Source: Eledone cirrhosa
Lineage: Eukaryota
Direction of reading: 5' to 3'
DNA length: 64,000 nucleotides
Assembly: GCA_964016885.1 (NCBI GenBank)
Contig: OZ024741.1
Span: 380,680,001-380,744,000, forward strand
In this document: positions 12,170 to 43,830 of the stretch, piece after piece
Position numbering within the stretch: position 1 is the stretch's first letter
Layout of the letters: each line of letters opens with the position of its first letter
Program-made: the position numbers and the translations under genes
Notes under the pieces: model-generated
Databases searched by the model: none
What the model saw: the letters and a program-made list of their open reading frames with translations, nothing else
What the model was told of the DNA's origin: nothing

Positions 12170-15100
12170 CTTTGATATCTCAGTCATTGTCGTTATGTAA
12201 CTGGAAAATTTAACCTAATTAACATCAAGCCACTACTCAGATAATCAGGACATATCTGTCAATCCTTGCAGTTCCCAGTAGACATGCCTCCTGAAGTGTT
12301 TCAAGAAAGGCGGTTGGGCTGATTTAACCAGCCATGGAAACTCTTGGAGATAGTACCTAGAGCTCCTATAATGATGGTGACGACTTAGATCTCATGACAA
12401 TCCTAAATTTTTTTCAGTTCCCAATTCAGATCCTAGTACCAATCAATTTCCTCCTTTTCCTTTCTTGCACTCTTGTGTCAAAGGGGCAAGCTACATCTAT
12501 AATCAAGTAAGATCTTTTTTCCTTCTCAAAAGCCACCAGGTCAGGCCTATTGTTTTCTAACTTTTTGTCCATTTGTATCCTGAAATCCCACAGCAGCTTC
12601 ACCTGATTGTTTTCTATCACAGACTCTGGCTTATGCTTGAACCATTTCCTAGTATGAGGTGATTTGTTTAGTTTGCATAAATGCCAGTGAATCACTTTTC
12701 CTATGATACCATGTCTCCATCTTTTACGAATCTGGCTTAGGGCGTTTACACTTGGATACGATGTGAGCCACAGTTATCTCTCTCCCAACAGATCCTACAG
12801 AGCGAGTTCAGTATTTACACACAGATATGATGTAAGCCACCGTTTTTTCTTTCTCTCCACAGATCCTACAGAGCAGGCTAGCCTCCTCTTTGTCGATATG
12901 GTGCCTCATCCACTTTTTTGTAAGGGCTTTCTCCTGGGCATTCCCTCCTTAGCTTTTTTAAGATCCCCTTTCTATAACCAGTTCTATGAATGTAGATCTC
13001 TGAATTCGGTTTTCTTCAAAAAGATGCTATGAATGGCCTTTTCATTCAGGTTGTTTTTCCTCTTTGTTGTTACTTCTTTCTTGGACATCACCCTGATCTA
13101 CTATCTCCTTATTAACACAACCTTAAGCATTGGCTCATTACTCGTAGACACATATTTGTGTAAACAGTTCTTCTCCATTTGAACACAATCCTCCATGCTG
13201 GTTAGACATCTTCCACCTTCAGATCTCTTTCAGTATCAACGTCACCATTCTTATGAAACATACTGTAGGTAATCATTAATTTCCTTTTCTTTCTATCCAG
13301 TTCTTTTTGCTCATTTTGATTCCATTTAAGAATCCCTGCACTGTACTTAAAAGATAGACACAGCTCGGAATTTACTGCACTTATGGCATTTCTACTATTA
13401 AGTTGTGATTTTAGTATGGGCCTTACTCTCCTTATATATTCAGATCTTATTATTTCCTTCATTTGATTGTCCTTCGTGATATCTGCCTCCAGTACACACA
13501 AATATCTATATCCCTCTTCTGTGTCAATCTCTTTTAGCATCTCACTCATTAGTACCTCAATTCCTTTGCATTTTTACAATTTATCTCTCTTCATGCTTAT
13601 TAACACCAAATTCCATACATATATCATGGCTGAAAGTTTGCATAGTGTTAGCAAGTATATCCAAATCATTCTCATTGTTGCCAAAGAGTTTTAGGTCATC
13701 CATGAAGAGGAGGTGGTTGATGGTAAGCTCTTTTATTCCCAGTTCATATCCTGCCTTCACTCTTTGCAAATCAAGGTACAAGGATATGAGGGTAAGGACA
13801 AACAATAAAGGGAACAGACTATCATCTCCTTGCAAGATATCTCTCTTGATTTTCACTCCTCCCAAGGATTCTTCCCCTGATGTTAGCTTTACCTCCAAGG
13901 TCTTCATGCAGTCTGTTGTTTTACTGCCACCATGAAGATTTCCAGACACTCAGTTATCCAAGAATGAAGAACCATGTTGAATGTCTTCTTGTAATCTATC
14001 GATCCCATGGCATGACCAGTAAGCCTCCCCTTGCTGTTCCTTATTATAATCTTGTCAATAAGTAACTTTCTGTTCTTCCGGCAATAAGTTATTTATGTAG
14101 AGATGGTGGTAAATTTCCTCAGACGTAATCCTTGTTAGCAATATCCACATCAAGGACATATATGTGGTAGGCCTATAGTAGCTAACGTCATTTCCTTTGG
14201 CATGGTCATTAAAACCATGGTACTCTTTGTCAACCACTGAAGTTCTTCACCTGACACTAAGCAGTCATTGATCATGGCTGTCAGTATTATGTGAAGAGAC
14301 GTCATATTTTTAGTTCACTATACTTACACATCATCTGGGCCTGGCGATTTCCAGTTGGTTAATTTATTGGCCTGCTTTTTAAGGGTTTCAACCAAGATCC
14401 TCAGATCAGATTGTTGGTGTGCTTGTTCATTAACCTCCATTTAACTGTCTCAATCCATTGTGCCCCACTATTATGCTAAACATCCTGCTCCTATATCCCT
14501 CTCCAAAATGTGTTGGTCTGCTCAACCTCAGGAATAGCATCATTGGCTCTTTCTTTCCTTTCACCTTGTTCAAATAATATTTTTTGGTTGTTGTCAAACA
14601 CAAAGTTTTGTTTATACTGGCTATCTTTGCTCTCATAGCTTTTAATTTTTTCACTTTTGGCTGACACATTGCTTTAGTTCCTTTATTATAACATTTAGCC
14701 CTTGTGTTGTATTTCCTTGTCAATCTATCCTTAGTACCTATGTTTTGTAAAGACTTAAGCTTCCCTTCTTATATCTTTGATTTGACCATTTGACCACTTC
14801 TTCCATCAGGGTTCTATTCTTTTTTATCTGTTTTCCTTCATTTTAATACCAAACAATTTTTTCACCACATATGCAGCTGCTTTGAGGATGTTGTTGCATT
14901 GTTGAGGATTATTTACCTCAAAGTATGGTTCTCCCCAGTTTACCTTAACTATTCTTTCTTTTAACTGTTTTTTGTCTAAAAATCTTAGATTCATAGGTTT
15001 TCTACTATCATTATTCATTTCATCCACCACTAATTCAGAATATCAACAAAATCTTGCCCTAGCCCATCAGCGTTAATTTTCTCAATAGCCGTATCTTTAC

Positions 15101-15640
15101 TTGAGATGTTATTTATCTCAACCATTAGATCATTGTCTTCATCAGTTACTTCCTCAGATGTTACAACCACTTCACTCCCATTTTCTGCTGGCTCATTTGC
15201 CTAATTTACCCCACTTTACATTTCCAGCTTAATCTCTTTACTCAGTTCTTCCAATTCCAACTCACTTATTCATCCATTAGTTCTTATTACATGAGCCTGA
15301 CCCACTAGTTTTTGTTCACTTAATTCAAATAGCACAATATCGTTCCAGATTTTATGCATTAATTCCCCTTTCTTAGTGGGATCACTTTCAGATAACATTA
15401 CATTAGTTTTATTTAATTTCTTTCTCCAGTTGGTTCTTGCCCAATTCCTTCTTCTTCCTCCATCACCAGCAGTATTTGAATGACTGCCTGATTCCTATTG
15501 CTGGGCCAGGGCGTACTTGCTGGGTGAGATTCCTTCACATGAATTTCCAGCCTCCTTCACACCAGGTTTAATATTCAAGCACTCATAAAGAGGATTACTG
15601 AATTCTAAGTTTGCACTATTACCAGTGTTTTTAAGGTGAC
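12170..15640 (-). mobile_element. R4/Dong-like non-LTR retrotransposon (RT + restriction-like endonuclease), near full-length, heavily decayed (copy A)
   Basis: ORF pieces: RT (ILQGDDSLFPLLFVL, HLLFMDDLKLF; 13581-13949) and RLE (WDFRIQMDKKLENNRPDLV...IIDVACPFD; 12426-12695). N-terminal region is homologous to 30561-31478, and the 3' UTR matches 26821-26868. (ATT)n on the plus strand at both ends. Confidence 0.9.
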
Positions 15641-15660
15641 TATTATTATTATTATTACTT

Positions 15661-15692
15661 TGTGTAAACCCTTGTGGTTAATAAAGAAAGCA
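15661..15692 (+). mobile_element. 32-bp 3'-terminal stub of a Tx1-like LINE
   Basis: tgtgtaaacccttgtggttaataaagaaagca matches the terminus at 16622-16653. Confidence 0.8.
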
Positions 15693-16653
15693 TCAAGCGA
15701 AGACCGAGAGGGAGTGCTTAGAGACTGAAATGTCTTCAGGCGCTCACAGCCCTCGACCAATCGGGCAATGTGATTGGTGGAAACTCCACCTCGGTGTTCT
15801 ATAGAGGATTAGTGGAGGGGAAGAGCGACGCCGTTCTTGGGGTAACTCTAGGCATCGACGAAAATCAACTAGCCAATCTCTTCGTAAGAACTCTCAGACC
15901 GGGGCCTATGGACAACTTCCAGAAATCCCTGGGCTGGCAGTGCTACCGAGGAGCTTTGCCAGTTCGCGATAAACTCTACAGGCATGGAGGTGCCATCAGC
16001 AGGGCATGTCCTAGATGCGCGCAGGGCGACGAAACCGTCCTGCATGCACTTGTCCAATGTCCGAGCATTGCTGAATTGTGGGTTTATGTCAAACACCTGC
16101 TGTCGCATGTAGAATGGATCTGTCTATCAGCTGAGTCCATCGTGAGGATTGCCCCGTCCTCTTCCTTTAGCCGGGAAGGGCAGGCAGTTTTTATCTGTCT
16201 GGTGGCCATGGCGAAAAAGATAGTATGGTGGAAACGTTTGAAAGGGCTGAAGACAACCACTTACCTCTTCGGTGATGCTCTGATTAACTTTTCCAAATTT
16301 CATTTGAAAAGGAAAATCAGGGTAGAGAGGGAAGTGCTCTCTTCCCAGCATTTTATTGAAAGATGGGTGAGAGAAGCAAGAATGGCCCGAGTGAATGGGC
16401 CTACTCTGAGTAAGTGTCTGTAAATTAAAGGTGGAAAACTGGGAGAGGGCACTTGCCCTGGTGGTCAGGGTCACTGTGATCTTTTAATTGGCTTTCTCCA
16501 CAAATGTCCCTCTGAAGTTTCCCCCTATTGGGGAATTTTTTATTGTTATTATTTGTTACATCCTCTGAAATGCCCATTTGTACCGTCCTGTATTGTCCTG
16601 TACTTTCCTTAATGTCTACTTTATGCAAACCCTTGTGGTTAATAAAGAAAGCA
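15693..16653 (+). mobile_element. 5'-truncated Tx1/L1-clade LINE (ORF2 C-terminus + 3' UTR)
   Basis: ORF 15770-16423 with C-terminal zinc motif CPRC...ETVLHALVQC. AATAAA, then an (ATT)n tail. Same subfamily as 26911-29810. Confidence 0.92.
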
Positions 16654-16899
16654 TTATTATTATTATTTGAGTCTTACTTCAAATTCTGCTTCTTTCACAA
16701 ACCAGAAGTATGAGGCTAAATTTGATAATACACACATTTACAATCAATTGCCATACATATGAGTAAAAGTCTTTGCAGGGATTTTAAATTGAAAATATCC
16801 TTCCCAGGATTTGAACAGTGACAGTCAGTACTATTTTTTGTATCTCTTACAGAGATGACTTTCTAGGTATCTGGTCAAAATATTTTTACAGTACTCTTT

Positions 16900-17103
16900 T
16901 GGCAGTAACGGTAGAGCATCAGACAATATGCTTTATGGCATAGGGTTACCCCCCTTTACAATCTGAGTTCAAATCCTGCTGAGGTTAGCTTTGCCTTTCA
17001 TCCTTACAGGGTCGATAAAATAAAGCACCAGTAATGCACTGGTGTTGATTTAATCGACTATCCCCTTCTCCCAAATTGCTGGCCTTTTTCCTAAAGTAAA
17101 AAC
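16900..17103 (+). mobile_element. ATT-SINE (long subtype)
   Basis: SINE consensus followed by an (ATT)n/(CTT)n tail at 17104-17180. Confidence 0.85.
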
Positions 17104-17138
17104 AATTATTATTATTCTCATTATTCTTCTTCTTCTTC

Positions 17139-17180
<42 letters not shown>

Positions 17181-17368
17181 GGGTGGTAGTTTGGTAGAAT
17201 CGGTAGGGCGTTAGATACCATGCTTTGCAGCATAGGAGTTTAGGCACTTTATATTTTGTGTTCAAATCCCGCCAGGTTAACTTTGTCTTTCATCCTTACG
17301 GGGTCAATAAAATAAAGTACCAGTAATGCACTGGAGTAATTGCTGGACTTGTGCCAAAAGTAGAAACA
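17181..17368 (+). mobile_element. ATT-SINE (short subtype), inserted in the tail of the previous SINE
   Basis: Full SINE consensus ending ttgtgccaaaagtagaaaca. Confidence 0.88.
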
Positions 17369-17395
17369 TAATAATAATAATAATAATAATAATAA

Positions 17396-17510
17396 TTGTT
17401 TCTACTTTAGGCACAAGGCCAGCAAATACCCAGTACATTACTGGTACTTTATTTTATCGACCCTGTAAGGATGAAAGGCAAAGTTAACCTCGACGGGATT
17501 TGAACTCAGA
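17396..17510 (-). mobile_element. ATT-SINE 3' half, inverted
   Basis: Reverse complement of the SINE 3' half, with (AAT)n on the plus strand on both sides. Confidence 0.88.
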
Positions 17511-17827
17511 TTGTAATAATAATAATGATAATAATAATAATAATAATGATTTCATTTATTGGCCACAAGGACCGACATATAGGGGACAATACAAAAGACT
17601 GGGACAGTGGGGTTTTACAGAAAAATCGAGTAAACAATATGAATAACAATAACAAAGTAACAATAACAAAGTAACAATAAAGTAACAATAAAATTACAAC
17701 AAGAGAAAATTCCCCAATAGGGGGGATGACCACCTAGGGTTCGCTCAGGTACCCCACCAGTCCTGAACGACCCGACGCTTCGAGAGCACCCTGGAAGGGC
17801 ACCCCTCTCCTCCTCAAATTTACCTAC

Positions 17828-20800
17828 CTACAGCCACATGACCAGAGTAGGCCCACTCACACGGGCCATTCTCGCCACATTCACCCACCTTTCAGTAAGG
17901 GGGGGGCAGTACTTCTCTCTCCACCCTCACCTTCCTTTCCAAGTGAAACTTGAAAAAGTTGATAAGGGATTGGCCGAAGGGAAAAGTGTATGTCTTCAGT
18001 CCTTTCAACCTCGTCCACCATACAACCTCTTTCGCTACTGCCACCAGACAGAGGAAAATTGACTGCCCTTCCTGGCCAAAAGAAGGCGGCGGGTCGATTT
18101 TCACTATGGACTCGGCCAATAGCCAGATCCGTTCTACACGCGACAACGGCTGTTCAACATAACTCCACAAATCAGTAATGCACGGACACTGGACGAGTGC
18201 GTGCAGAACAGTTTCGTCGCTCTGCGCGCATCTCGGGCCAGTCCGTCTGACAGCACTTCCGTGCCTGTAGAGTTTATCCCGAACCGGCAGTGCCCCCCGG
18301 TAGCACTGCCAAGCGAGGGATTTTTGGAAATTATCCATCGTCCCCGGTTCGAAAGTCCTCCGGTACAGACTGGTTAGTTCGACTTCGTTGACTACCAGAG
18401 CCTCTCTGAGTGCGTCGTCGCACTTGCCCACCACTAATCCTCTATAGAACTCGAGAGTGGAAGTTCCACTGACCGTATTTCCCGCCTGGTAGAGAGCAGT
18501 GAGTGCCTGGCAACATTCCAGATGCCAGTCACCCAGTCTCGGTCTCTTCTTGACCCAGGACTGCAGCTCAGTCAAAGAAACGAGCTGCGGAAAGGCCCGT
18601 CTGACAAATAGCGACCACACCTGTTCACCGTTTAGGCAGAATATCTGGAGATGCCTCAGCGCGTGCCGGCGCATCATTAGCCACGGCATGCCCAGCCCTC
18701 CACATAGAGGGTGCTGTCAACAGATGGACTGCCTCACCAGCGGAACCTGACCCCTCCACAAGAATTTAAAGACGAGCCGCTCCAAGATGGCGAGGCGCGA
18801 ACGGGGGCACGGGACGACGGTCAGACGGTAGTAGATGTACGCGTTCGCCACCTTCACCCGACCTTTCAGTGATAGCTTCATCCCAGTCCATTTCTGGGTG
18901 AGACTGGCTACTCTGCCCGTCACCTCGTCCCAATTCTTATCCATCTGGAGGTCTGGCCTGAACCAAACCCCTAGCAACTTTACCGGTCCATCCGTCCAGC
19001 GCCTAACGATGCTGTTGGACGGTATGGACTTTTCCGGGTTAAGTTTTGCTCCCGTCAACCTTTCATATTCCTCCAATAAGTTGCCGACCACCTCGATTTC
19101 TGAGGTGTCCGACACCATCACGGTGATGTCGTCCGCATAAGCCGACACAGCCTTTCCGCGTCCTGGTTCGAGCAGGATGCCCTGCAACAGATCCAGCTCC
19201 CACAGTAGAGGGCTCGAGAGTCAATATGTACAGAAGGGAGGAGAGAGGGCACCCTTGACGGACAGATCGGGAGACCTGAAACAGTTCCGAGAGGTAGCCA
19301 TTAATTTTGACCATCGAGCAGGTGCCGCTGTGCATTGCAGCGATCCAGCTTCTGAAGAAGGGGCCGAAGCCAGCCTCCTTGAGTACAGCCTCCAGGTGCC
19401 GATTGTCGACCCTATCGAATGCTTTCGATTGATCTAAATTGATCAGAGCCCCACCGCATTAAGTGGAGGTTGTCGTGTATGGACCTGGTTGAGATTGCGC
19501 AAGTTTGCGCCTCCCCAACCAAATCCCCGACGACAAGCGCCAACCTCTTCCCTAACACCCTGGCCAAAATCTTAAACTCTGTGTTGAGCAGAGTTATGTG
19601 CTTGAAATTGTCTAATGTGTCCCTCTTGCTGTCGTCTTTCCTTATCAGCGTCACTACGCCCCGGCTCACAGAACTAGGAATACTCCCGTTTTGCTGCCAG
19701 TTGCAATAGAGGGCTTCGAGGAGATTGGAGAACAAGTCTGGCATATTTACATAAAGCTCGTAGGGCAGACCATCCAAACCGGGTGACTTGCGCCTCATGC
19801 AGCCGACAAGGGCATCCTGAATCTCGGCTGAAGTAATTGGCCTTTCGCAGCGCCCAGCGACAGCCGTCGAGAGTTGCGGCAAGCCATCGAGGTAGGGACT
19901 GAAGTCCGCCACCATCTCTGACCCGCCACTTCCCCTGAACAACCGGGCAAAATGTTGGCGAAAGGCCTCACACATCCTCTTGGAATCGCTCATCTCGTGC
20001 CTGTCTCGGTCCGTCAAAGACCGAATCGTGGTTTTAATACCACGCTGCGCCTCTGCCACGCGGGCCCATCGGACAGCTTTGGTTCCCTCGTTTCTCAGAG
20101 CACGCGCCTTAGCTCTGACAATGCAACCTTCGTCTTTCGCATTGAAGAAATGGTCTAAGGCCATTCTCGCCGCTAGCACGTCAGTTGCAATGCCACTACC
20201 AATAGCCTCGTCTAACTTATCTACCAACTCTCCCTCCTTTCTATTTTTCTCTAACGCAACTTCTTTGCTAAACTCTATCGACATTACTCTAATCTCTCTT
20301 TTGAGAACCCCCCACCATCTATTGTTGACGACTCCCCTGTCAACTTTTTCTTAACTAAATTATTGACCTGGTCCCTGTAAGCATTACGTGCCGGAAATGA
20401 CATGTTTAGCTTCCAGTAACCAGGTCCTAACCTACGCGTCTTATCTAGGTCGACCATACAGATCACAAACTTGTGATCTGAATAGGCGACCGTTTCAAAA
20501 CGTGGACAGCTTACACTATTTCTGTCTATTTTCCTAATGAATATCTTGTCTATATACGATCTAGATGGCCCTATGCGGTTAGCCCAGGTTCACACTCGCA
20601 CATTAGGGAAATCTAATCGGTACCTGTCAGACAGTTGGAACTGGCTGATCAGGTTCTTGAGGCTTTTGCACCCCCCGCTCCTATCGGATACTCCCACACA
20701 GTCCCAGCGTGCGTCTAAGATGCCGTTGCAGTCCCCCGCTAACAGTAAAAGCCGAGACGTACACAGAAAGGCTTCCAAGCGTCTAAAGAAGTCCAGCCGT

Positions 20801-21152: not shown

Positions 21153-21187
21153 GTTGGCAGGTTAAAAAGAGAGAGAGGAAGGTTTAC

Positions 21188-32360: not shown

Positions 32361-35300
32361 CCCACCAACCATGGAGGTCGAACCACCCGACTTTTACAAG
32401 ACCCCGGGAGGTAAGTGAACCTTCCCTCTCTCTTTTAGCTTGCTAACATGGCCATATTAAGAGTAGGAAGTTTAAATGTTCGCGGCCTGAGGTCACCCTG
32501 GAAGCAGGGTCGCCTGCTCAACGACCTCAGGTCTCTGGAAATGGATGTGATTGCCATCAGCGAGACCAGGATTTCCAACACGCGCGCACTAGCCCCCATT
32601 TTCGACGACTATTAGATCTTCGCATCTGTTAGCAGGCCGAGAATGGGAAGTGGGGTAGCAGTGTGGTTTAGGAAAGATCTGGATCTCGAGGTAAGGTCGA
32701 TCTTCCAGGACACAGATGGTAAGTTGGTGGTCCTGGATGTGAACAGTAGCGACGGTGGTGCCTTTAGACTGCTGGCTGTCTACGCCCCTATTGGCGCCGG
32801 ACGATCAGACTTCTTTAGGTGCCTGGAAAACTTTCTGGGTACGTCTCGCCCTCTACCGTTAGCGGGGGACTGGAACGGCATCTTAGACGCATGTTGGGAT
32901 TGCATGGGAGTAGCTGATAGGAGCGGGGGGAGCAAAAGCCTCAAACACCTAATCAGCCAGTTCCAACCGTCTGACAGGTATTGACTAGATTTCTCCAATG
33001 TGCCAGTGTGGACGTGGACCAGCCACATAGGGTCATCTAGATCGTATATAGACAGGATCTTTATTAGGAAAAGTGTAGATAGAAATAGATAGAAATAGTG
33101 TAGGCTGCCCAATTTTTAAAACGGTCGGCTATTCAGATCACAAATTGATGATCTGTTTAGTCGACCTAGATAAAACGCGTAGATTGGGACCGGGTTACTG
33201 GTCATTTCCGGCATGTAAGGCTCACAGGGACCGAGTCAACAATTTAGTTAAGTAAAAGTTGACAGGGGGATCATCAACAACAGTTGGGGGGGGGGGGCTC
33301 TCAAAAGAGAGATTAGAGTAACTTCCATAGAGTTCAGCAAAGAACTAGCGTTAGAGAAAATAGAAAGGAGGGGGAGCTGGTAGATAAGTTAGACGAGGCT
33401 ATTTGTAATGGCATTGCAACTGACGTTCTAGCGGCGAGAATGGCATTAGACCATTTCGTCAATGCGAAACACAAAGGTTGCATTGTCAGAGCTAAGGCGC
33501 ATGAGCTGAGAAACGAGGGACCCAAAGCTGTTCGATGGGTCCGCATAGCAGAGGCGCAGCGTGGTAATAAAACCACAATTCGGTCTTTGGCGGACCGAGA
33601 CACTGACACGAGATAAGCGATTCCAAGTGGATGTGTGAGGCCTTTCGTCATCACTTTGCTCGGTTGTTTGGGGAGAGTGGCGAGTCAGAGAGAGTAGCGG
33701 ATTTCACTCCCTCCCATGAGGGCTTGCCGCGCATCTCGACGGTCGACGGTGAATGCTGCGAAAGGCCGATTACTTCAGCCGAAATTCAAGACGCCCTTGT
33801 CGGCTGCATGAGGCGAAAGTCACCTTGGCAGGATGGCCTTCCCTACGAGCTTTACGTAAATATGCCAGACTTGTTCTCCGATCTCCTCGAAGCACTCTAC
33901 TGCAACTGGCAGCAGAATGGGAGTATTCCCAGTTCTGTGAGCAGGGGAGTGGTGACGCTGATAAGGAAAGACGAGAACAAGAACGATACATTAGACAAGA
34001 GGGATGCATTAGACAACTTCAGGCCCATAAATCTGCTCAACACAGAGTTTAAGATTTTGGCCAAGGTGTTAGCAAAGAGATTGGCGCTTGTCGTCGAGGA
34101 TTTGGTTGGGGAGGCGCAAAGTTGTGCAATCCCAACCATGTCCATACACGACAATCTCCACCTCATGCGATACATCATAGAGAGGGTAGGGTGTAAACTT
34201 GGCTTCGGTGGGGCACTGATCAATTTAGATCAATCGAAAGCATTCAATAGTTTGTCCTCAAAGCAGCTGCCTTATGCTCTGACTTCAGAAGCTGGATCGC
34301 TGCAATGCACAGCGGCACACGCTCGGTGGTCAAGGTTAATGGCCACCTCTCGGAACCATTTCGGCTCTCCCGATCAATCCGTCAAGGGTGCCCTCTCTCT
34401 TCCCTTCTGTACGTATTAACTCTTGAGCCTTTACTGCGGAAGCTGAAGCTGTTGCATGGCATCCCATTCGAACCGGGACGTGGAAAAGCAGTGTCGGTTT
34501 ATGCAGACGACATCACCATGATGGTGTCAGACACCTCAGAAATCGAGGTGGTCGGCACCTTATTGAAGGAATATGAAAGGTTGACAGGAGCCAAACTTAA
34601 CTCGCAAATGTCGGTGGGCTTGCACCTCAGAACATGGAGCGGCAAGCTTATGCCGTCCAACAGCGTCGTGGGGCGCTGGACAGATGGACCGGTAAAGCTG
34701 CTCGGGTTTGATTCGGACCATTCCTCCAGGTGGAAAAGAATTGGGATGAAGTAACGAGCAGAGTAGCCAGTCTCACCCAAAATGGGCTGGGAGGAAGCTA
34801 TCACTGAAAGGTCGCACGGAGGTGGCGAATGCGTACATCCTGTCCATCATCTACTACCGCCTGACCGTCGTGCCTTGCACCCGTCCGCGCCTCGTCAAGC
34901 TGGAAATTCTTGTGGAAAGGACAAGTTCCCTTGGTGAGGCGGTCCATCTGTTGCCAGCACCCTCTACGCGGAGGGCTGGGCATGCCGTGGCTAATGATGC
35001 GCTGAGGCTGCGCTATCTCCAGATATTCTGCCTAAACGGTGAACAGGTGTGGTTGCCGTTTATCAGACGGGCCTTTCCTCCAGCTCGTTCTTTGACTGAG
35101 CTGCAGTCCTGGGTCAAGAAGAGACCGAGACTGGGTGACTGGCACCTGGAATGTTGCCAGGCACTCACTGCCCTCTACCAAGCGAGCAATGCGATCAGTG
35201 GAACTTCCACTCTTGAGTTCTATAGAGGATTAGTGGCGGGCAAGTGCGATGACGCACTCGGAGAAGTTTTAGGCCTCGACGAAGTTGAACTGACCAGTCT

Positions 35301-36116
35301 GTACCGGAGGACTTTCGAGCCGGGGACGATGGACAATTTCCAGAAATCCCTCGCTTGGCTACTGGGGGGCACTGCTGGTTCGGGATAAACTGTACAGGCA
35401 CGGAAGTGCTGTCATACGGACCTGCCCAAGATACGCACAGAACGCCGAAACCATTCTGCACGCACTTGTCCAATGTCCGTGCATTACTGACTTGTGGAGT
35501 TATGTCGAACAGCTACTGTCGCATGTGGAACGGATCCTGCTATCGGTCGAGTCCATTTGTGAAGATCGACCCGCCGCCTTCCTTAGGTCAGGAAGAGCAG
35601 GCAAATTTTCCTCTGTCTGGTGGCCGTTGCGAAGAGGTTATATGGTGGACGAGATTAAAAGGACTGAAGACAGACGCTTTCCACTTCGGCCAATCCCTCA
35701 ACTTCTTCAAGTTTCATCTGGAAATAAAGGTGAGGGTGGAGAGAGAAGTGCTGCTGCCCAGTACATTTGCTAAAAGGTGGATGAATGTGGCGAGAATGGC
35801 CCGTGTGAATAAGCCTACTCTGACCATGCGATTATAGGCTAGCTAACTTGAGGAGAGGGGTGCTCTCCCTGTGTGCCCTAGAAGCGCAGGGTGGTTCAGG
35901 ATTGGTGGAGTACCTGAGTCACCCCTGGGTCGTCCACTCCCTATAGGGGAATTTATTTTGTTATATTTATGCATAATTTATTTTATATTTTTATATTTTC
36001 ATTGTTAAATTAGTCTTGCTATTGTGCACTTTTACTAGACCTTATTGTAAACCCCCACTGTCCCTGTCTTTTTATTGTCCCCTACATATCGGCCCGTGTG
36101 GCTAATAAATAAAATC
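32359..36116 (+). mobile_element. Tx1/L1-clade LINE truncated just upstream of ORF2 (copy G, same subfamily as B)
   Basis: ORF2 ATG at 32448 (MAILRVGSLNVRGL), APE and RT fragments (VYADD), end of ORF2 at 35837. (ATT)n on both sides. Confidence 0.93.
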
Positions 36117-36154
36117 ATTATTATTAGAAACAATTATTATTATTATTATCATTA

Positions 36155-36217
36155 TATTGTCCTGTACTGTCCTTAATGTCTACTTTATGTAAACCCTTGT
36201 GGTTAATAAAGAAAGCA
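36155..36217 (+). mobile_element. ~63-bp 3'-terminal stub of a Tx1-like LINE (D subfamily)
   Basis: Near-identical to 16591-16653 and embedded in (ATT)n. Confidence 0.88.
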
Positions 36218-36253
36218 ATATTATTATTATTACTATTATCATTATAGTTGCAT

Positions 36254-36740
36254 TTATCTTCCCATTATTACTATCTTTTGTATTTCTCCTATACGCGGGT
36301 TTCCTGGGATTTGCGATAAGTAATCATTAGACCCCTTAGGTATCATTCCTAGAGCGCCTACAACCACTGGTATTGTTTTAGTTCTCAATTTCCACATTTT
36401 TCCAATTTCTATCTCCAGGTCCTTATACTTGCTCAATTTTTCAAATGTTTTTATATATACATTCTTGTCTATTGGAACGGACATATCAATTAGCAGGCAT
36501 ACCCTCTTTTTAAAGTCCTTCAGTATTATATCAGGTCTATTTGCATCTATTTTTTAGTCAGTTTGGATGCTAAAGTTCCACAAGATTGAGATGTGATCTT
36601 TTTCAAGTATGGGAGGTGGTTGATGCTCCCACCAATTCTTTTGATGGGGCAGGTCAAAATGCTTACACATTATCCAATGTATGTATTGTGCAGCTCTGTC
36701 ATGCTTATTTAGGTATTCGGTTGGAGCTATAGGACTGCAT
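36254..36740 (-). mobile_element. RLE-domain fragment of a second, divergent R4/Dong-like family
   Basis: Translates C..IAPTEYLNKHD...IHW..CK...WNFSIQTD...NRPDII...LIDMSVP...EKLSKYKDL...IPVVVGALG. Flanked by microsatellite, and clearly diverged from copies C, E and F. Confidence 0.87.
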
Positions 36741-36757
36741 TATCATTATTATTATTA

Positions 36758-36852
36758 GGTTGACTTTGCCTTTCATCCTTATGGGGGTCGATAAAATAAA
36801 GTACCAGTAATGCACTGGTTAATTACTGGCCTTGTGCCTAAAAGTAGAAACA
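36758..36852 (+). mobile_element. ATT-SINE 3' half
   Basis: SINE 3' consensus between (ATT)n tracts. Confidence 0.88.
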
Positions 36853-36869
36853 ATTATTATTATTATATT

Positions 36870-37054
36870 GAGGGCGGTGAATTGGCAGTATCGGTAGAGG
36901 GTCGGATATGCTTTCCAACATAGTTACGTCCCTTTACGATCTGAGTTCAAATACCGCCGAGGTTAACTTTGCCTTTCATCCATACAGAGGTCGATAAAAT
37001 AAAGTACCAGTAATGTACTGGGTATTTGCTGGCCTTGTGCCAAAAGTAGAAACA
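36870..37054 (+). mobile_element. ATT-SINE, full length
   Basis: SINE consensus. Its (ATT)n tail leads directly into Tx1 copy H. Confidence 0.9.
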
Positions 37055-37236
37055 ATTATTATTATTATTGTTGGTGAAGCCACGCTTCTTATCGCCTCCA
37101 GTCTTTTTCAACGTTTTACCTCTTTTTCAACCGTTCTAAACCTTTTATTCAAGTTTTAAGTTTGATAAAAGTTTAGAAGAAGTGACCCACCTAACACAGG
37201 GGTTCACTAGTAAATAATACGGCACTCCTTTACGGG

Positions 37237-38835
37237 GTGTCGTATTCGTATATGTGTAAAAATATATTTTTGAAAAATTTCAACATGGATAACACAAGAA
37301 AGAGAGAGAGCGCTGTCAGACAACACAGAGAGAGGGAGACTTTATCAGCATGTCAACAAGACAGCGTTCAAGCGGAGGTAAATATAAACGAAAATATTAC
37401 AAACGAAAAAAAGTTTGTTACAGATTTAAAATTACCAAATATTTCTAACACAAACAACACCAACAATAACACCAACAACATCACCAACAACAACACCAAA
37501 AATAACAGCGGTAAAGTCGAGAACGACAATAACAAAAATAACAGCGGTAAGGTCGAGAACGACAATAACAAAAATAATAGCGGTAAGGTCGAGAACGACA
37601 ATAACAACAGCCACAACAACAATAATAGTAGGAACAGTATCAACAAAAACAACAATAATAACAACAGCCACAATAACAGTAACAGCAGCAACAGTATCAA
37701 CGAAAACACCAACAACTGTACCAGCGAAAAGAACAACAATGACACCGATACCTGTAATAGCGACCTCAGCACCACCAGTAAGACCAGTAGCGGCAGCAAT
37801 AGTGGTGCTGCTGAAAAAGGGACCACTTCTTTTGCAGGTGTCGCCCGAAATATCGAGACAGTGTTAGTCACAGAGGAGGAGATGGCAGTCGCAAGGGCCA
37901 TGGTGACAAGAAGCGCAAATAGAGTTTCCCTGAAACCTCCACCCAATTTTTTCAAGGACCAGCAACTACGGACGGTGACTTACCGCACCGTAAGCAAAAT
38001 CTCACATCGAGTGGAGAGAGCCACGGAGGCTCAAATCCAAAAGGCCTTGGGGTGCGTCTGGGCACGCAAAACCCACGTCACCCGAGGCAGAAAGTACGCC
38101 ACAGTAGACGTACTTTTCGCCACTCCCCAGGAAGCAAAGTCTCACTCTTTGGAAACCCTAAAGAGTGAGGAGTTAGTCTTGGTGCCCTCCTACTGCGGGC
38201 AGAAAATTGTGAGGGTCCCACCCGACGTGCCTATACCTTGGTTGGCCGCGTCTGTCCTTGCTGGAATTGAGAACAGGGCGACCATGCTGCAAGTAGAAAA
38301 AATAGGGAGAGAGAACTGGTCAGGTATAGGCATGCAAATGCTTATACAAACTGACCAGGAATGTATCGAGGCTATCCCCGATATCATAGACTTCGAGGAA
38401 GGACTCCAACTCCCTATAAGTGTAGAAGGAAGACGGCCAAAATGTTATCTCTGTGGGTCGAAAGGTCACCTCAGGGCCTTTTGCCCGCAGAAGACACCGA
38501 AGAGGGCCCTTCTCCTTCCAATACCTGGTCCGCTGCTACCAAGAGCAGGACAGGCAACAAACGAAGAAGCCCCTTCCACGGTGAGTAGGAAGGCAACGTC
38601 CGTAGCACCCGTACCAAGGCCACGGATAACTAAAGCAGCATCATCAGTAGCGGCAACACCAATAGCTACATTTGAAATAGCTACACCAGCAACAAAATTG
38701 CCGAAGAGGGCTCCACTACCACCACCAACAGCTGTGGAGCACATACCCCTCCCAGACGTCACAGAATCCGACATGGAGTTTGAGGCGGGAGTGATGTGGC
38801 AAACAGTCTGCCACAAAAAACAAAAAAACCCTTAG
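37237..38835 (+). CDS. Tx1-like ORF1p (Asn-rich repeats, CCHC zinc knuckle). Probable start ATG ~37285; probably continued originally to ~39942 via a frameshift in the A-run at ~38815-38828
   Basis: 532-aa open frame with CYLCGSKGHLRAFC (CX2CX4HX4C), collinear with ORF1 of copy B. Confidence 0.8.
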   Translation: MSYSYMCKNIFLKNFNMDNTRKRESAVRQHRERETLSACQQDSVQAEVNINENITNEKKFVTDLKLPNISNTNNTNNNTNNITNNNTKNNSGKVENDNNKNNSGKVENDNNKNNSGKVENDNNNSHNNNNSRNSINKNNNNNNSHNNSNSSNSINENTNNCTSEKNNNDTDTCNSDLSTTSKTSSGSNSGAAEKGTTSFAGVARNIETVLVTEEEMAVARAMVTRSANRVSLKPPPNFFKDQQLRTVTYRTVSKISHRVERATEAQIQKALGCVWARKTHVTRGRKYATVDVLFATPQEAKSHSLETLKSEELVLVPSYCGQKIVRVPPDVPIPWLAASVLAGIENRATMLQVEKIGRENWSGIGMQMLIQTDQECIEAIPDIIDFEEGLQLPISVEGRRPKCYLCGSKGHLRAFCPQKTPKRALLLPIPGPLLPRAGQATNEEAPSTVSRKATSVAPVPRPRITKAASSVAATPIATFEIATPATKLPKRAPLPPPTAVEHIPLPDVTESDMEFEAGVMWQTVCHKKQKNP

Positions 38836-39280
38836 ATTCACCCTCCAAAAGCGAAGGCATACAAAGAGGGGTAAAGGCAGCAAGGAAACTTGCAGCAACA
38901 CCACCACAAACACCAACAACGCAAACACAACAAGACACACACACCAAACAGCAACAAGAAGAAAATAGCAACAAAATCACCCCTCCCGCCAAAAAGTGCA
39001 CAGCCATAAACATGGCAAAAAAAAAACTCACACAATATATAATGCAGCACACAGACATCACAGAAAAAAACTACTACACCCCACCAACACCAAGAACTCT
39101 CCCGACAAACATAAGCATCATCGAAAGAAGAAAACGGCAACAAAATCCCCCCTCCCCCAAAAAGTACACAGCCAAAAACATAGCAAAAAAAGAACTCATA
39201 AAATATATAAAGCAACACACAGACATCACGGAAAAAAACTACTACACCCCACCAACACCTCTCCCGACAAACATAAGCGA

Positions 39281-39696
39281 TGTAGTGACCTACATTCCGC
39301 GGCTCACATACATTCTCTGTGCGGGATTTGGCTCAGCTCAGCCAATCAGCGCCAGTAGAAGAGGATGTATCCCTACGCGTTCTGAGGGAGAAATAGCCCG
39401 CAAAGATTTGAGGACGCTATCTCTTCCAGCTAGGCCGTGCTAAGGTAAACACCACTTGTTCTTTTGCTCCGTAAGCACAAACAATATGTAACGACAAAAC
39501 ATTACCTACGAGCCTGGCCAAACGCCTTCAGCCAGTTGCCCGTATTTTCTCTTGTAATCTTAATTGATTTGTTTTATTTCTCTTGGCATGCCAACTCAAC
39601 CTCTGTTAATAAATAATGTAAAACTAAGCTGAAGTCGTTGTTGATATTCCTATCACATCTTTCTGCCAAACCTGGTTCCTCGTGGCAACCTTACCA
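39281..39696 (+). mobile_element. Putative solo LTR-like insert within ORF1 of copy H
   Basis: Abrupt compositional change. TG...CA ends (tgtagtg...ttacca), CCAAT at ~39342 and AATAAA at ~39608. No counterpart in copy B, and no TSD recognised. Confidence 0.45.
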
Positions 39697-39974
39697 ACTT
39701 CTAAATACTTCTCCGCTAAATTGGTGACTTATATTCAACAAAGAGAAACATTCTTTTCCTTTAGCATCATCGAAATCTCAATAGAACAGTACAAACCCTT
39801 AAAACAAAAATTCCCCAACACAGTTGGAGACTTCAGAGGGACGGTTACCAAGAGGATATACACCGACATCCTCTTGGAAACACCCATGACCAGCGAAAGG
39901 GACGGTTCTACTGTCCCTTCACCACACGAACAAGGTAAGTGACCCTTTCTCATTTGCCCCATTTCTCATCCAAT

Positions 39975-42900
39975 ATGGCTGTACTCAGAATAGGCAGTAT
40001 AAATGCACGTGGCCTGGGGTCATCTTGGAAGCAGGGTCACCTGCTCAATGACCTCAGGTCACTAAACATAGATGTGGTGGCCATCAGTGAAACCAGAATC
40101 TCCGAGGCACGGGCCTTCGCACCGATCTTCGGCGGCTACGATGTATACGCATCTCCCAGCCGTCCAGGATCGAGGGGAGGGTTGGATCTCGCAAGGCTAT
40201 CTTCTTGGACCCAGAAGGTAAGTCGGTGGTGCTGGACGTGACCGGCAGTGAAGGCAATGCTTTCAGGCTAGTAGCCGTCTATGCCCCAATGGGGGCAGGA
40301 TGGCCAGATTTCTTCAGACGTCTAGAGACTTTTCTTGGAACGTCCCGCTCTTTAGTGTTAGTGGGCGACTGGAACGGTATCTTGGATGCACGCTGGGATC
40401 ATGTGGGGCTAGTGGATAGGGGAGGAGGGTGCAAGAGCCTCACCAACCTGCTCAGACGTTTTGAACTGTCTGACAGGTATCGACTGGATCACCCGAATGT
40501 GCCAATGTGGACATGGACAAAACGCATCGGGTCATCCAGATCGTATCTAGATAGGGTATTCTGCAGGGAACTAGATAAGGCTAGTATAAGGTGTCAACAA
40601 TTTAAAATAGTCGACTACACAGACCACAAATTTGTGATCTGTGAGATCAACATAGACAGACTTCATAGACAAGGGCCTGGTTACTGGAAGCTGAACGCGA
40701 CTTTCCCAGCGTGCAAGGCCTACAGAGACCGGATTAGCGTATTAGTTAAGCGGTCGTCAACAACAGGTGTGGTTCACCCTGAAAAGGGCAATTAAAGTAG
40801 AGTCGATTAGGTTTAGCAAAGGAGTAGTGATAGAGGAAAATAGAGTAGAGGGAGAGCTAGTCAGAAAGCTAGAAGAAGCGTTTAGGACAGGCATCGCAAC
40901 CGACGTGCTTGCGGCCAGATTGGCACTCGACCAATTCTTCAACGCAAAACACGGAGGCTGCGTTGTCAGAGCTAGAGCGCGTGCTCTGAAACACGAGGGG
41001 ACAAAAGCCGTCCAATGGGCCCAGGTGGCCGAGGTGTGACGTGGCAACAAAGCCACAATTCGGTCTTTGCCTGACCAAAACGGGTGCGTGATGCTCGAAC
41101 CCAAGCGGCACTTGGTTGAACTGTTCGGGAGTGGTGGTGGCCCGGATCGGGGCATGGACTTCAGTGCATACCTCGACGACCGCAGCACAGTGTTGCAAAG
41201 AGCCAATAACAGCCGGTCAAATACGGGAAGCGATGGCTAAGTGCACAAGAGGTAAATCGCCAGGTTTAGATGGTCTGCCCTACGAGCTTTATGCATTTAT
41301 GCCAGACTTGTTCGGTGACCTCTTGGCAGACGTCTACTGCAACTGGCATCAGAACGAGAGCATTCCCAGTTTTGTGAGCTGAGAAAAGACCCGAACAAGG
41401 GAGATGTTATTGATAATTTCAGGCCCATAACGCTGCTAAACGCAGAGTTCAAGATTTTGGCCAAGGTGTTAGCAACGAGGTTGGCGCTTGTCGTCAGGGG
41501 TCTATGGGAGAGGCGCAGACATGCGCCATTCCGGACAGAGCCATACACGACAACCTCCACCTCATGCGATACATCATAGAGAGGGTGGTTAAGGAACCTG
41601 GCAAGGGTGGGGCCCTGATCAACTTGGATCAATCCAAAGCATTCGATAGGGTCGACCATCGGTACCTGGCGGCGGTTCTCGAGGCAGCCGGTTTCGGGCC
41701 CGTTTTCAGGCGTTGGATCGCAGCAATGTACAGCGACATCTGCTCAGTTGTGAGGGTGAACGGTCACCTGTCGCAGCCGTTCAGAATCATGCGCTCAGTC
41801 CACCAGGGTTGTCCCCTCTCGTCCCTCTTGTACGTATTGGCTCTCGAGCCATTACTGCACAAACTGGGGGTGATGAGGGGCGTCCCACACGAACTAGGAT
41901 GTGGGAAATCCGAGTCGGCTTACGCTGACGATGTCACCGTGGTGGTGTCGAGCACCAGACACCTCCAGATGCTCGGCACCGCTCTCAAGGAATACGAAGC
42001 GGTGACAGGAGCAAAGATAAACCAGGAAAAGTCGGTGGGCTTGCAGCTAGGCACCTGGAGAGGCAAGTCTATGCCGTCCAACAGCGTCGTGGGGCGTTGG
42101 ACGGACAGACTGGTTAAATTGCTTGGGATTTGGTTTGGACCGGACCTCCAGATGGAGAAAAACTGGAACGAGGTGACGAGCAGGGTGGCCTCCCTCACCC
42201 TGAAATGGGCGGAGAGGAAGCTGTCCCTGAAAGGCCGGGCGGAAGTGGCGAATGCGTACATCGCATCCGTCATCTGCTACCACCTCACCGTCGTCCCTTG
42301 CTCCAGCCCAACTATCACCAAAATGGAGCGCCTCCTCTTCCACTTTTTGTGGAAGGGACGCGCTCCCATGGCCAGACAATCCCTCTGCTGTCAACACCCG
42401 TTGCGTGGAGGACTGGGCATGCCATGGCTGATGATGCGCAAACATGCGCTGAGGCTGCGACATCTCTGGTGCTTCCTTGATGGTGAACGGGTGTGGTCGC
42501 CGTTCGCCAGGCATGTTTTCCCCCAGCTCGTCTCCTTGACGGAGCTGCAGTCCTGGGTCAAGCGAAGACCGAGGGATAGCGCTTGGAAACTGGAATGTCT
42601 CCAGGCACTCACTACCCTCTCCCAGTTGGGCACCAGTATCGGTGGAACATCCACCTCGGCGTTCTATAGAGGACTAGTGGAGGGGAAGAGCGACGACATT
42701 CTCGGGGAGATCCTGGGCGTCGAAGAAGATCAGCTGTTTGCTCTCTTCCGGAGAACTTTCAGCCCGGGGCCTATGGATAACTTCCCAAAATCCCTGGCCT
42801 GGCAGTGCTACCGGGGAGCGCTGCCGGTTCGAGATAAGCTCTACAGGCACGGAAGTGCCGTCAGCCGAGCCTGTCCGAGATGCGCGCATAGCGACGACAC

Positions 42901-43291
42901 CGTTGTGCACGCACTCGTTCAGTGCCCGAGCATTACTGACTTGTGGAGGAGCTATGTCGAACAGTTGCTGTCGCGTGTGGGACTGATCCGGTTGTCGACT
43001 GAGTCCATTGTGCAGATGGTCTCGTTGTCTTCCTTCGAGGAGGAAGGGCAGGCGGTTTTCATCTGCCTGGTGGCCATGGCTAAAGAGATGGTGTGGTGGA
43101 CAAGGTTAAAAGGATTAAAGACAAACACTTTCCTCTTCGGCGAATCCCTGATTAACTTTTTCAAATTTCACTTGAAGAGGAAAATCAGGGTGGAGAGGCA
43201 AGTGCTGCTTTCTAGCAAGTTTGTTGAAAGGTGGGTGAATGTAGCGAGAATGGTCCGAGTGAACGGGACCGCTCTGAATATACGTCTGTAG
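39975..43291 (+). pseudogene. Tx1-like ORF2 (APE + RT + zinc motif). 5' half frameshifted; last 595 codons open
   Basis: MAVLRIGSINARGL...AISET; VGDWN; YLDRVF; TDHK; LDQSKAFDRVDH; HQGCPLS; AYADD; CPRC...HALVQC. Confidence 0.93.
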
Positions 43292-43618
43292 TTTGAGAGA
43301 TGGAAAAATTGAGAGAGTGCGCTTGCCCTGGTAGTCAGGGTGGCCGTGGTCTTTTGTGTGGTTTTCGCCACGAGTAACCCTCGGAGGTTTCCCCCCTATT
43401 GGGGAATTTTTCATTGTTTCAATTTTCATTTTATTGTTTATATATATATATGTTTTATGTCTTTTTTTTCTTTTCTTATATAAATAATAAAAATATTTAC
43501 ACGCACAAACCCACATCGTACCGTCCTGTTCCGTCTGTGATGTTTTTCTTGATGTCAGCCCTTGTGGCCAATAAAGAAATCATTATTATTATTATCATTA
43601 TTATTATTATCATTATTA

Positions 43619-43830
43619 GTGGATTGGCAGTGTCAGTAGAGCATCAGACAACATGCTCTACTGACATTGCCAATGGCCCTTTACGTTCTGTGTTCAAATC
43701 ATGCTGAGGATAGCTTTGTCTTTCATTCTTACAGGGTCAATTATATAAAGTACCAGCAATGCACTGGTGTCAATTTAATCAACTTTCCCCTACTATAAAA
43801 TTACTGGCCTTGCACCTAAATCAGAAACCA
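43619..43830 (+). mobile_element. ATT-SINE (long subtype) with (ACT)n-like tail
   Basis: SINE consensus immediately after the tail of copy H. Confidence 0.82.

What the first reader, a model, noticed from the sequence alone, without database searches (positions are those of the whole stretch)
12170..43830. Strict strand rule: Tx1 and SINE insert with (ATT)n sense, Dong-like with (AAT)n sense
Seen: where the plus strand reads (ATT)n (12.2-17.37 kb and 29.83-43.8 kb), every Tx1 and SINE is + and every Dong-like copy is -. Where it reads (AAT)n (17.37-29.82 kb), Tx1 B, Tx1 D and the SINE are - and Dong C is +. I found no exception, including the divergent Dong family at 36.3 kb. Inference: the two machineries prime on opposite strands of the same repeat. 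Neighbours are therefore head-to-head or tail-to-tail, and read-through from one family gives antisense RNA of the other (possible small-RNA source).
Basis: partly seen in the sequence, partly recalled or inferred. Interest (0 to 1): 0.7.

Follow-up and report, generated by a model that had tools for sequence, protein, structure and literature searches.

The report
Opposite-strand retrotransposons sharing ATT repeats
In a 32-kb pile of 19 jumping-gene copies, two unrelated kinds face opposite ways relative to the same three-letter repeat, likely because each kind cuts and starts copying on the opposite DNA strand; silkworm telomere elements are known to do this, but I did not find it described for this pair.

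Summary
The rule is real. Of 19 elements in 12171-43831, 14 have a clear repeat at their 5' flank. All 14 obey: Tx1 and SINE read (ATT)n, Dong-like copies read (AAT)n. Four tracts lie between two 5' ends, so the rule is not just tails.

Corrections: same-machinery neighbours are head-to-tail (10 of 11 pairs). The SINE is not repeat-specific: 4 copies lie outside repeats. It shares a 3' hairpin with Tx1, so it is probably Tx1's passenger. Two junctions break the neighbour rule; both are the ends of block 17369-29824, probably a later inversion, because reading it on the other strand restores the SINE end and a 14-bp target duplication.

Likely mechanism: opposite first-strand nicks, plus RNA-tail pairing that renews polarity. 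Precedents: TRAS1/SART1 on telomeric repeats, and Dong's published (TAA)n-sense flank. I found no paper on an (ATT)n-targeting Tx1, but those searches were weak. Raw reads support the Dong half in other copies; the Tx1 half and the antisense/piRNA idea remain untested. The scan noted this pattern three times before on other pieces of this genome (unchecked notes).

The parts
12171..15640 (-). Dong-like RLE retrotransposon A, near full length, decayed; (AAT)n sense on both sides
   Evidence: 41-59% identity to intact relative P0122
15641..15655 (.). (ATT)5 tract between two 5' ends (nobody's tail)
15656..15692 (+). Tx1 3'-end scrap (37 nt), no tail, joined directly to Tx1 A
15693..16652 (+). 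Tx1 A, 5'-truncated, (ATT)5 tail
16668..16896 (.). 229 bp not assigned to any element, probably host DNA separating two nests
   Evidence: no self-BLAST hit
16897..17104 (+). SINE (longer subfamily) with non-repeat 5' flank; its ATT tail probably seeded the second nest
17105..17180 (.). compound (ATT)/(CTT)/(ATT)14 tract; resembles 32289-32358, likely an old target duplication
   Evidence: 21-nt common string; CTCATTA at 17117 and 32298
17181..17368 (+). SINE with (ATT)14 5' flank and no own tail; left polarity switch
17369..29824 (.). block of reversed polarity, probably inverted after or during insertion of Tx1 B
17397..17513 (-). SINE, 5'-truncated, (ATT)n sense on both sides
17548..23342 (-). 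Tx1 D, full length (ORF1 region plus APE-RT ORF2, frameshifted)
23343..23369 (.). (AAT)8 tract between the 5' ends of Tx1 D and Dong C
23370..26868 (+). Dong-like C, near full length with an internal deletion, (AAT)n sense on both sides
26911..29810 (-). Tx1 B, 5'-truncated, tail-to-tail with Dong C
29811..29841 (.). right polarity switch: 14-bp perfect inverted repeat around a 3-nt spacer
29842..31658 (-). Dong-like E, internally deleted (RT missing), joined directly to F
31659..32288 (-). Dong-like F, 3' part lacking its last ~70 nt; 5' flank (AAT)14 plus (AAG)n in sense
32359..36116 (+). Tx1 E, truncated at the end of ORF1, (ATT)14 5' flank
36126..36132 (+). last 7 nt of a SINE plus (ATT)5: minimal insertion or duplication remnant
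36155..36217 (+). Tx1 3'-end scrap (63 nt) with probable target duplication (ATTATCATTAT at 36145 and 36235)
36246..36737 (-). divergent RLE element (3' part, PD..D motif; 39.5% to P0122), flanked by ATTATCATTAT at 36235 and 36739
36757..36852 (+). SINE, 5'-truncated
36868..37054 (+). SINE, full length
37070..43581 (+). Tx1 F, full length (ORF1 with weak CCHC hit; APE, RT and zf-RVT in a broken ORF2)
43619..43831 (+). SINE (longer subfamily), (ATT)n 5' flank, (ACT)n tail

Best explanation
The block is a nest of 19 non-LTR retroelement copies separated by short ATT/AAT tracts, in which Tx1 and SINE copies read (ATT)n and Dong-like copies read (AAT)n, likely because the two enzyme systems make their first cut and start reverse transcription on opposite strands of the same repeat. 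Steps. (1) Shown: orientation follows the flanking repeat in 14 of 14 scorable 5' junctions. (2) Inferred: the Dong-type restriction-like endonuclease first nicks the ATT-reading strand, and that 3'-OH pairs with an RNA ending in (UAA)n. (3) Inferred: the Tx1 AP-type endonuclease first nicks the AAT-reading strand after ...AATAAT, and that end pairs with an RNA carrying (AUU)n read from the element's own tail. (4) Shown: the SINE ends in the same small CUUGU-loop hairpin and ATT tail as Tx1; inferred: Tx1 proteins copy it, so it follows Tx1's polarity. (5) Inferred: every insertion leaves a new tract of the same polarity, SINE tails included, so nests grow and keep their polarity. (6) Inferred (about 65%): the reversed middle block is one later inversion, with breaks at the left edges of Tx1 B's two target-duplication copies.
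For: 14 of 14 clear 5' flanks obey, p about 5e-4. Four tracts lie between two 5' ends and all 4 obey. Of 4 SINEs outside the block, 2 have clean 18-bp target duplications, and both start with ATTATT; that word occurs at 92 of 64,000 strand-sites outside the block. All 7 Tx1 ends have AATAAA, yet none is followed by an A-run longer than 3, which fits priming inside AUU repeats. The last 30 nt of SINEs resemble Tx1 ends: for Tx1 F at most 1 of 2000 shuffles scored as high against each of 5 SINEs, while for the 4 Dong-type ends at least 802 of 2000 did in all 20 comparisons. The shared 4-bp hairpin is 84.6% paired with 12 double-sided changes, above all 500 shuffles and all 6 slid controls. In raw reads of run X7, the three largest loose-end rows at the Dong 3' end (129,575, 32,105 and 17,028 reads) continue as the same repeat. 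Five of 15 joints shown link a Dong tail to a same-sense Dong interior and one links it tail-to-tail to a Tx1 end (direction read with the restriction map). Bombyx Dong has (TAA)7 upstream in sense (PMC3774820, methods and legend passages). TRAS1/SART1 enter one repeat in opposite directions (PMC7265360, discussion passage).
Against: The Tx1 5'-flank rule was not tested outside the window: the targeted read lay showed only internal subfamily differences in the 6 of 248 loose-end rows displayed. Only 15 of 2162 joints were shown, two of the six used have a short side of 23 nt, and X7 may be a related species. Tx1 B ends resemble SINE ends only weakly (40-481 of 2000 shuffles as high). The hairpin has only 4 pairs, the outer one unpaired in 6 of 13 sequences, and related sequences can beat shuffles. 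Two of the 4 outside SINEs lack a clean duplication. No nick site was measured. None of the 32 distant Tx1-like metagenome loci has an ATT/AAT array, so the target is not deeply conserved.
Confidence: 0.72

Rival explanations
1. Tx1 has no repeat-specific endonuclease. It uses any nick (its own relaxed cut, or the second-strand cut of the Dong enzyme), and only pairing of its AUU tail fixes the orientation.
For: The SINE, probably copied by the same proteins, lands at ordinary AT-rich sites that merely start with ATTATT. In SART1, repeat-like RNA bases may anneal to the target (PMC7265360 passages).
Against: All 7 Tx1 pieces lie in the block and none outside, against 4 of 11 SINEs outside; this is not significant (p about 0.11, by hand). 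Endonuclease swaps move target choice between TRAS1 and SART1 (PMC7265360 introduction passage).
Confidence: 0.15
2. The rule is a tautology: the tracts are only the elements' own 3' tails, so polarity simply mirrors orientation.
For: 10 of 18 neighbour gaps are pure tail tracts of at least one neighbour (counted), and 3' flanks are not independent evidence.
Against: Four tracts lie between two 5' ends and are nobody's tail, and all 4 obey. Random orientation would give polarity clashes at about half of the 5' junctions; 0 of 14 clash.
Confidence: 0.05
3. Orientation is random at insertion, and copies in the disfavoured direction are lost later (instability of inverted repeats, or selection for alternating strands that yield silencing RNA).
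For: Inverted neighbours of one family can be unstable (recalled). Molluscs have transposon-rich piRNA clusters (bioRxiv 10.1101/250761, abstract and passages).
Against: Close inverted pairs persist here: SINE 17181/17397 at 85.6% only 28 bp apart, Dong C/E at 90-94%, Tx1 A/B at 88%. Loss would not tie orientation to the strand of a 15-bp tract.
Confidence: 0.05
4. For the reversed middle block only: Tx1 B inserted the wrong way (a true exception, about 20%), or the block is an assembly error (about 15%), rather than a real inversion (about 65%).
For: Tx1 B's 5' end marks the right edge of the block. No contig or read piece shown spans the locus. A similar imperfection (ATTATTATATT) also occurs at 36859, so the match of the arms is not unique in kind.
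Against: Reading 17369-29824 on the other strand gives the canonical SINE end GAAACAATTATT and turns the 14-bp inverted repeat, found once per strand in the window, into a direct duplication around Tx1 B. A wrong-way insertion leaves no direct duplication. The window has no N gaps.
Confidence: 0.35

Closest known systems
TRAS1Bm and SART1Bm of Bombyx mori on (TTAGG)n (PMC7265360, passages read)
   Same: Two target-specific non-LTR families insert into one simple repeat in opposite directions; the endonuclease sets the site, and repeat-like RNA bases may anneal to the target.
   Different: Both carry AP-type endonucleases (recalled: both are R1 clade), end in poly(A) and sit at telomeres. Here an RLE family and a Tx1 APE family share an interstitial trinucleotide repeat, both end in the repeat itself, and a SINE joins in.
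Dong (Bombyx), DongBg, Darwinula Dong1/2 and Rex6; R4 clade (PMC7998251, PMC3774820, PMC1635306, passages read)
   Same: Single-ORF RT plus C-terminal RLE, (TAA)n target reported for insects, molluscs and cnidarians, and the same sense polarity (TAA upstream of the 5' end).
   Different: Nothing essential. A second, divergent RLE family uses the same polarity here. The 5' ribozyme and Myb domain were not established.
Microsatellite-targeting Tx1 families: Kibi (TC)n, Koshi (TTC)n, crocodilian (TTCC)n/(TTTC)n (PMC4494074, passages read)
   Same: Tx1-like APE-RT ORF2, preference for simple repeats, and a SINE partner with shared targets (SINEU/Tx1-Mar).
   Different: The target here is (ATT)n, which is not among those listed in the passages I saw. 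It is shared with an RLE family on the other strand.
Stringent SINE-LINE pairs with a shared 3' stem-loop (PMC3747384, passages read)
   Same: Shared 3' end with a variable stem and conserved loop; repeat tail in place of poly(A).
   Different: The shared part is only about 25 nt, and the partner is a Tx1 element.

Membership tests
Tx1 clade (L1 group) | ORF2 with N-terminal APE, RT and C-terminal zinc domain | tested here: met
   Pfam Exo_endo_phos, RVT_1 and zf-RVT on pieces of copy F; collinear tblastn to the 1148-aa relative P0001
Tx1 clade (L1 group) | closest named relatives are Tx1 proteins | tested here: met
   most of the 120 hits listed are unnamed; the only family name given is 'transposon TX1 149 kDa protein' (P0047 36%, P0089 38%)
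Tx1 clade (L1 group) | ORF1 with zinc knuckle | tested here: inconclusive
   zf-CCHC E=0.0038, below the curated cut-off
Tx1 clade (L1 group) | RT phylogeny inside Tx1 with named references | not tested
target-specific Tx1 family (more than 20% of flanks, criterion of PMC4494074) | target at the flanks of copies genome-wide | tested here: inconclusive
R4/Dong clade | single ORF, central RT, no APE | tested here: met
   relatives of up to about 1130-1170 aa, nearly all with RVT_1 as the only Pfam family and none with an APE family among the 120 listed; best solved relatives of P0122 are R2 proteins; collinear match
R4/Dong clade | C-terminal CCHC knuckle and PD..D restriction-like endonuclease | tested here: met
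   motifs visible in P0122 and in the divergent copy (motif definition recalled); the phmmer match of this part to R2 is weak (E=10)
R4/Dong clade | (TAA)n target in sense | tested here: met
   3 of 5 copies clear at the 5' flank, 1 by eye, 1 without repeat; read tails
R4/Dong clade | 5' HDV-like ribozyme | tested here: inconclusive
   no relevant Rfam hit in 23300-23800; a conserved AATCCT block in 3 of 3 5' UTRs, fold not tested
R4/Dong clade | N-terminal Myb/SANT-like domain; RT phylogeny against Hero and NeSL | not tested
   not run; the clade of the divergent copy at 36.2-36.7 kb is therefore open
SINE mobilised by Tx1 (stringent pair) | shared 3' end with covarying stem-loop and shared tail | tested here: met
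SINE mobilised by Tx1 (stringent pair) | mobilisation in trans by Tx1 ORF2 | not testable with these tools
   needs a retrotransposition assay
tRNA-derived Nin/Deu-domain SINE (label recalled) | tRNA-like head and Nin core | not tested
   no Rfam match at gathering level in the window; no comparison with Nin references
piRNA cluster | piRNAs mapping uniquely to the block | not testable with these tools
   no small-RNA data could be laid

The most novel reading that the evidence does not exclude
A two-enzyme, strand-partitioned system in an octopus-like genome: SINE tails seed ATT tracts, Tx1 and Dong-type elements take opposite strands and regenerate the target for each other, and the resulting alternating arrays assemble themselves into dual-strand piRNA sources in which each family silences the other, while the endonucleases re-cut their own duplications and invert whole blocks.
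Probability: 0.1. Interest if true: 0.65.

Novelty: new variant of a known kind. Interest (0 to 1): 0.36.

Why it matters
It adds (ATT)n as a probable Tx1 target and gives a case where two different endonuclease classes split one repeat by strand. That makes an open point directly testable: whether the enzyme's cut or RNA-DNA pairing fixes orientation. It also explains how SINE tails can seed multi-kilobase element piles, in a genome type where Dong-R4 and L1-Tx1 are among the most active LINE groups (O. vulgaris: 1129 and 421 recent insertions, PMC13282606 Table 1 passage; the host assignment is my inference). The principle itself is known from TRAS1/SART1, so a specialist would find it tidy rather than surprising.

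Tried and rejected
No RNA holder was listed among the runs; this says nothing about expression. A read lay on 28015-28312, meant to catch 5' flanks of truncated Tx1 copies, displayed 6 of 248 loose-end rows, all internal subfamily differences. A 27-nt Tx1 3'-end pattern found 0 matches in metagenome contigs. A profile search gave 32 distant loci (24-53% identity in the best segment), 0 of 32 with an ATT/AAT array; many are short or cut by contig ends. Rfam: 0 matches at gathering level and one chance snoRNA match (E=1.7) in the Dong C 5' region. The loose-end rows at 29567 and 30135 were dropped because they coincide with AATT restriction sites. Literature: 0 papers; 0; the terms probably cannot match '(ATT)n' as printed; 3 papers: two read in passages with no Tx1 on ATT/TAA repeats, one an E. 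coli paper seen only as a listing. One review was not held. Kojima and Fujiwara 2004 was seen only as a citation, and Repbase entries and supplements were not seen; they may already list such a Tx1 family. Rejected: 'the SINE is (ATT)n-specific' (4 of 11 copies lie outside repeats); 'all neighbours face opposite ways' (11 of 18 pairs are co-oriented); 'segmental duplication explains the pattern' (copies belong to subfamilies 70-94% alike).
Full report
What is there. The window has no N and is AT-rich outside 12-44 kb. Reading the block, self-BLAST, Pfam and tblastn with intact relatives give 19 retroelement copies or pieces that cover 30,949 of the 31,661 bases from 12171 to 43831. Seven are Tx1-like: D and F full length, E, B and A truncated, and two scraps of 37 and 63 nt. 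Five are RLE-type: Dong-like A, C, E, F and a divergent 3' piece at 36246-36737. Seven are SINEs or SINE ends, one of them only 7 nt. Every long copy matches its intact relative in several pieces, i.e. it has frameshifts, stops or deletions. Between them lie tracts of 9-76 nt, except two direct joins and one gap holding 229 bp of unassigned DNA. The host is probably an octopus-like cephalopod. That is an inference from the element content, from the O. vulgaris repeat table (PMC13282606, passages) and from earlier scan notes, not a test.

The observation. A 3' tract is the element's own tail and proves nothing, so I scored 5' flanks separately. Fourteen of 19 elements have a clear repeat there and all 14 obey: Tx1 scrap 1, D, E, scrap 2, F and six SINE pieces read (ATT)n; Dong A, C and the divergent copy read (AAT)n. 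Tx1 B and Dong F have imperfect or compound tracts that the script left unscored and that obey by eye. Tx1 A, SINE 16897 and Dong E have no 5' repeat. Leaving out the 7-nt remnant, 13 of 13 has a chance of about 5e-4 when each machinery may take either sign. Four tracts sit between two 5' ends (Dong A/Tx1 scrap, Tx1 D/Dong C, Dong F/Tx1 E, divergent copy/SINE). They cannot be tails, and all four obey. The rule is therefore real at this locus.

Of 18 neighbour pairs, 7 are cross-machinery (6 opposite, 1 co-oriented) and 11 are same-machinery (10 co-oriented, 1 tail-to-tail). The two odd pairs are exactly the two polarity switches. At the left switch SINE 17181 has no tail and abuts (AAT)9. At the right switch a 14-bp perfect inverted repeat surrounds a 3-nt spacer, and the 14-mer occurs once on each strand in the whole window. 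If 17369-29824 is read on the other strand, SINE 17181 regains the canonical SINE end and the 14-mer becomes a direct repeat on both sides of Tx1 B and the elements nested in its tail, which is the normal shape of a target duplication. I read this as one inversion (about 65%), with breaks at the left edge of both duplication copies, where a Tx1 first-strand nick would fall. A wrong-way Tx1 B insertion (20%) or an assembly error (15%) are not excluded: no piece shown spans the locus, and a shorter version of the same imperfection occurs at 36859. If the inversion is right, the whole block once had a single polarity.

The SINE. Four further copies lie outside the block, none with a microsatellite at its 5' flank. 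Two of the four have clean 18-bp target duplications and both begin with ATTATT, a word found at 92 of 64,000 strand-sites outside the block. The other two have no clean duplication. So the SINE prefers a short match to its tail, not a repeat array. An earlier scan note (e1-9580941) suggested that this SINE shares Tx1's 3' hairpin, and I tested it. The last 30 nt of five SINEs match the Tx1 F end better than all but 0-1 of 2000 shuffles, match D, E and A well to moderately (0-90 of 2000), match B weakly (40-481), and do not match any Dong-type end (802-1950 in 20 comparisons). On 13 aligned ends a 4-bp stem around a CUUGU loop is 84.6% paired with 12 double-sided changes, above all 500 shuffles and all six slid controls. 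The outer pair fails in 6 of 13, and related sequences can beat shuffles. The SINE is thus probably copied by Tx1 proteins, which leaves two machineries, not three.

Evidence from other copies. Run X7 is a reduced-representation library of an unnamed organism that holds the same families; its read piles start at GCATGC sites, and the large ends I checked lie at AATT sites. One pile runs through the Dong 3' end. The three largest loose-end rows there (129,575, 32,105 and 17,028 reads; agreement 0.87-0.94) continue as the same repeat, so Dong copies in general end in (AAT)n in sense. Of 15 joints displayed out of 2162, five join the Dong tail to a same-sense Dong interior and one joins it tail-to-tail to a Tx1 3' end. 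None of these six lies at a restriction site, two have a short side of only 23 nt, and the direction was deduced from the restriction map. All six fit the rule. A second lay aimed at Tx1 5' flanks showed only internal differences. Distant Tx1-like loci from metagenomes have no such arrays (0 of 32). The scan has three earlier notes of the same polarity on other pieces of this genome (e1-9522035, e1-9592150, e1-9561528). I could not check them and do not count them as evidence.

How it likely works. In target-primed reverse transcription (established knowledge) the first nick lies next to the element's future 3' end, so orientation reports which strand was nicked and primed. Dong-like copies therefore primed on the ATT-reading strand, and Tx1 and SINE copies on the AAT-reading strand. 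This step is inferred from geometry. Imperfect repeat words support ordinary insertions with duplication: ATTATCATTAT flanks the divergent RLE copy (36235, 36739) and Tx1 scrap 2 (36145, 36235), and CTCATTA-containing compound tracts at 17117 and 32298 look like the two halves of an old site. All 7 Tx1 ends carry AATAAA 3-7 nt before the end, yet none is followed by more than three A. That suggests the RNA carries a few AUU units from the tail and that copying starts there by pairing with the AAT-ended primer. Pairing makes polarity heritable: each insertion leaves a tail that is a new target of the same polarity for both machineries. How much comes from endonuclease preference and how much from pairing cannot be separated here. 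I give 0.72 to opposite first nicks plus pairing and 0.15 to pairing alone.

Antisense RNA. Two cross-machinery tail-to-tail junctions (Dong C/Tx1 B; Tx1 scrap 2/divergent copy) would give antisense RNA if transcription crossed them. No RNA data could be laid. Tx1's poly(A) signal, and the self-cleaving ribozyme that frees Bombyx Dong from upstream RNA (PMC3774820, passages), would limit stable read-through. I could not establish that ribozyme here. Molluscs do have transposon-rich piRNA clusters (10.1101/250761, abstract and passages), so the idea stays open at low odds. The alternation needs no selection to explain it.

Comparison with what is known. Dong's (TAA)n target is reported for most insects, molluscs and cnidarians (PMC7998251, passage), and a primer in PMC3774820 shows seven TAA units upstream of Bombyx Dong in sense, so the Dong half of the rule is published. 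Opposite-direction use of one repeat is known for TRAS1 and SART1 (PMC7265360, passage). Tx1 families on (TC)n, (TTC)n and (TTCC)n/(TTTC)n are known (PMC4494074, passages). I did not find a Tx1 on (ATT)n, or a Tx1/Dong pair. Those searches handle bracketed repeats badly, and Repbase, Kojima and Fujiwara 2004 and all supplements were not seen. Family labels rest on domain order, motifs and named hits, not on a tree.

Verdict. Observation confirmed with corrections; interpretation partly supported. A new variant of a known kind: a probable (ATT)n-targeting Tx1 lineage and its passenger SINE share a repeat with Dong-like elements on the opposite strand, plus a probable local inversion. Interest 0.36.

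Noticed in passing
21183-21195 (-), 32409-32418 (+), 39933-39942 (+): All three Tx1 copies that keep the ORF1/ORF2 border carry a splice-donor-like GGTAAGT a few dozen bases before the ORF2 start; earlier scan notes report the same motif.
   Followed up: no
21244-23342 versus 37070-39932: The ORF1 and 5' regions of the two full-length Tx1 copies give no BLAST match to each other, although their ORF2 regions are 70% alike.
   Followed up: no
23185-23212: Perfect 12-bp inverted repeat with a 4-nt loop in the 5' UTR of Tx1 D.
   Followed up: no
23570-23640 (+), and the matching parts of Dong E and A: Conserved 5' UTR block around AATCCT with short complementary segments, possibly a decayed HDV-like ribozyme; no Rfam support.
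   Followed up: partly
12811-12940: About 130 bp duplicated in tandem inside Dong A.
   Followed up: no
31659: Dong E's 5' UTR is joined directly to a Dong F piece that lacks its last ~70 nt; likewise a tail-less Tx1 scrap is joined to Tx1 A at 15692/15693. Template jumps or deletions.
   Followed up: no
47939-48827 (+): Unrelated RT fragment followed by a PHD finger, outside the block and next to (AT)n arrays.
   Followed up: no
49566-49652, 51742-51788, 55273-55290: ATT tracts outside the block with no Tx1, Dong or SINE copy attached: apparently empty targets.
   Followed up: no
60212-60244: Perfect 15-bp inverted repeat with a 3-nt loop.
   Followed up: no
43832-43860: The last SINE's tail reads (ACT)n then (TTAC)n instead of (ATT)n; the nest stops there.
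   Followed up: no
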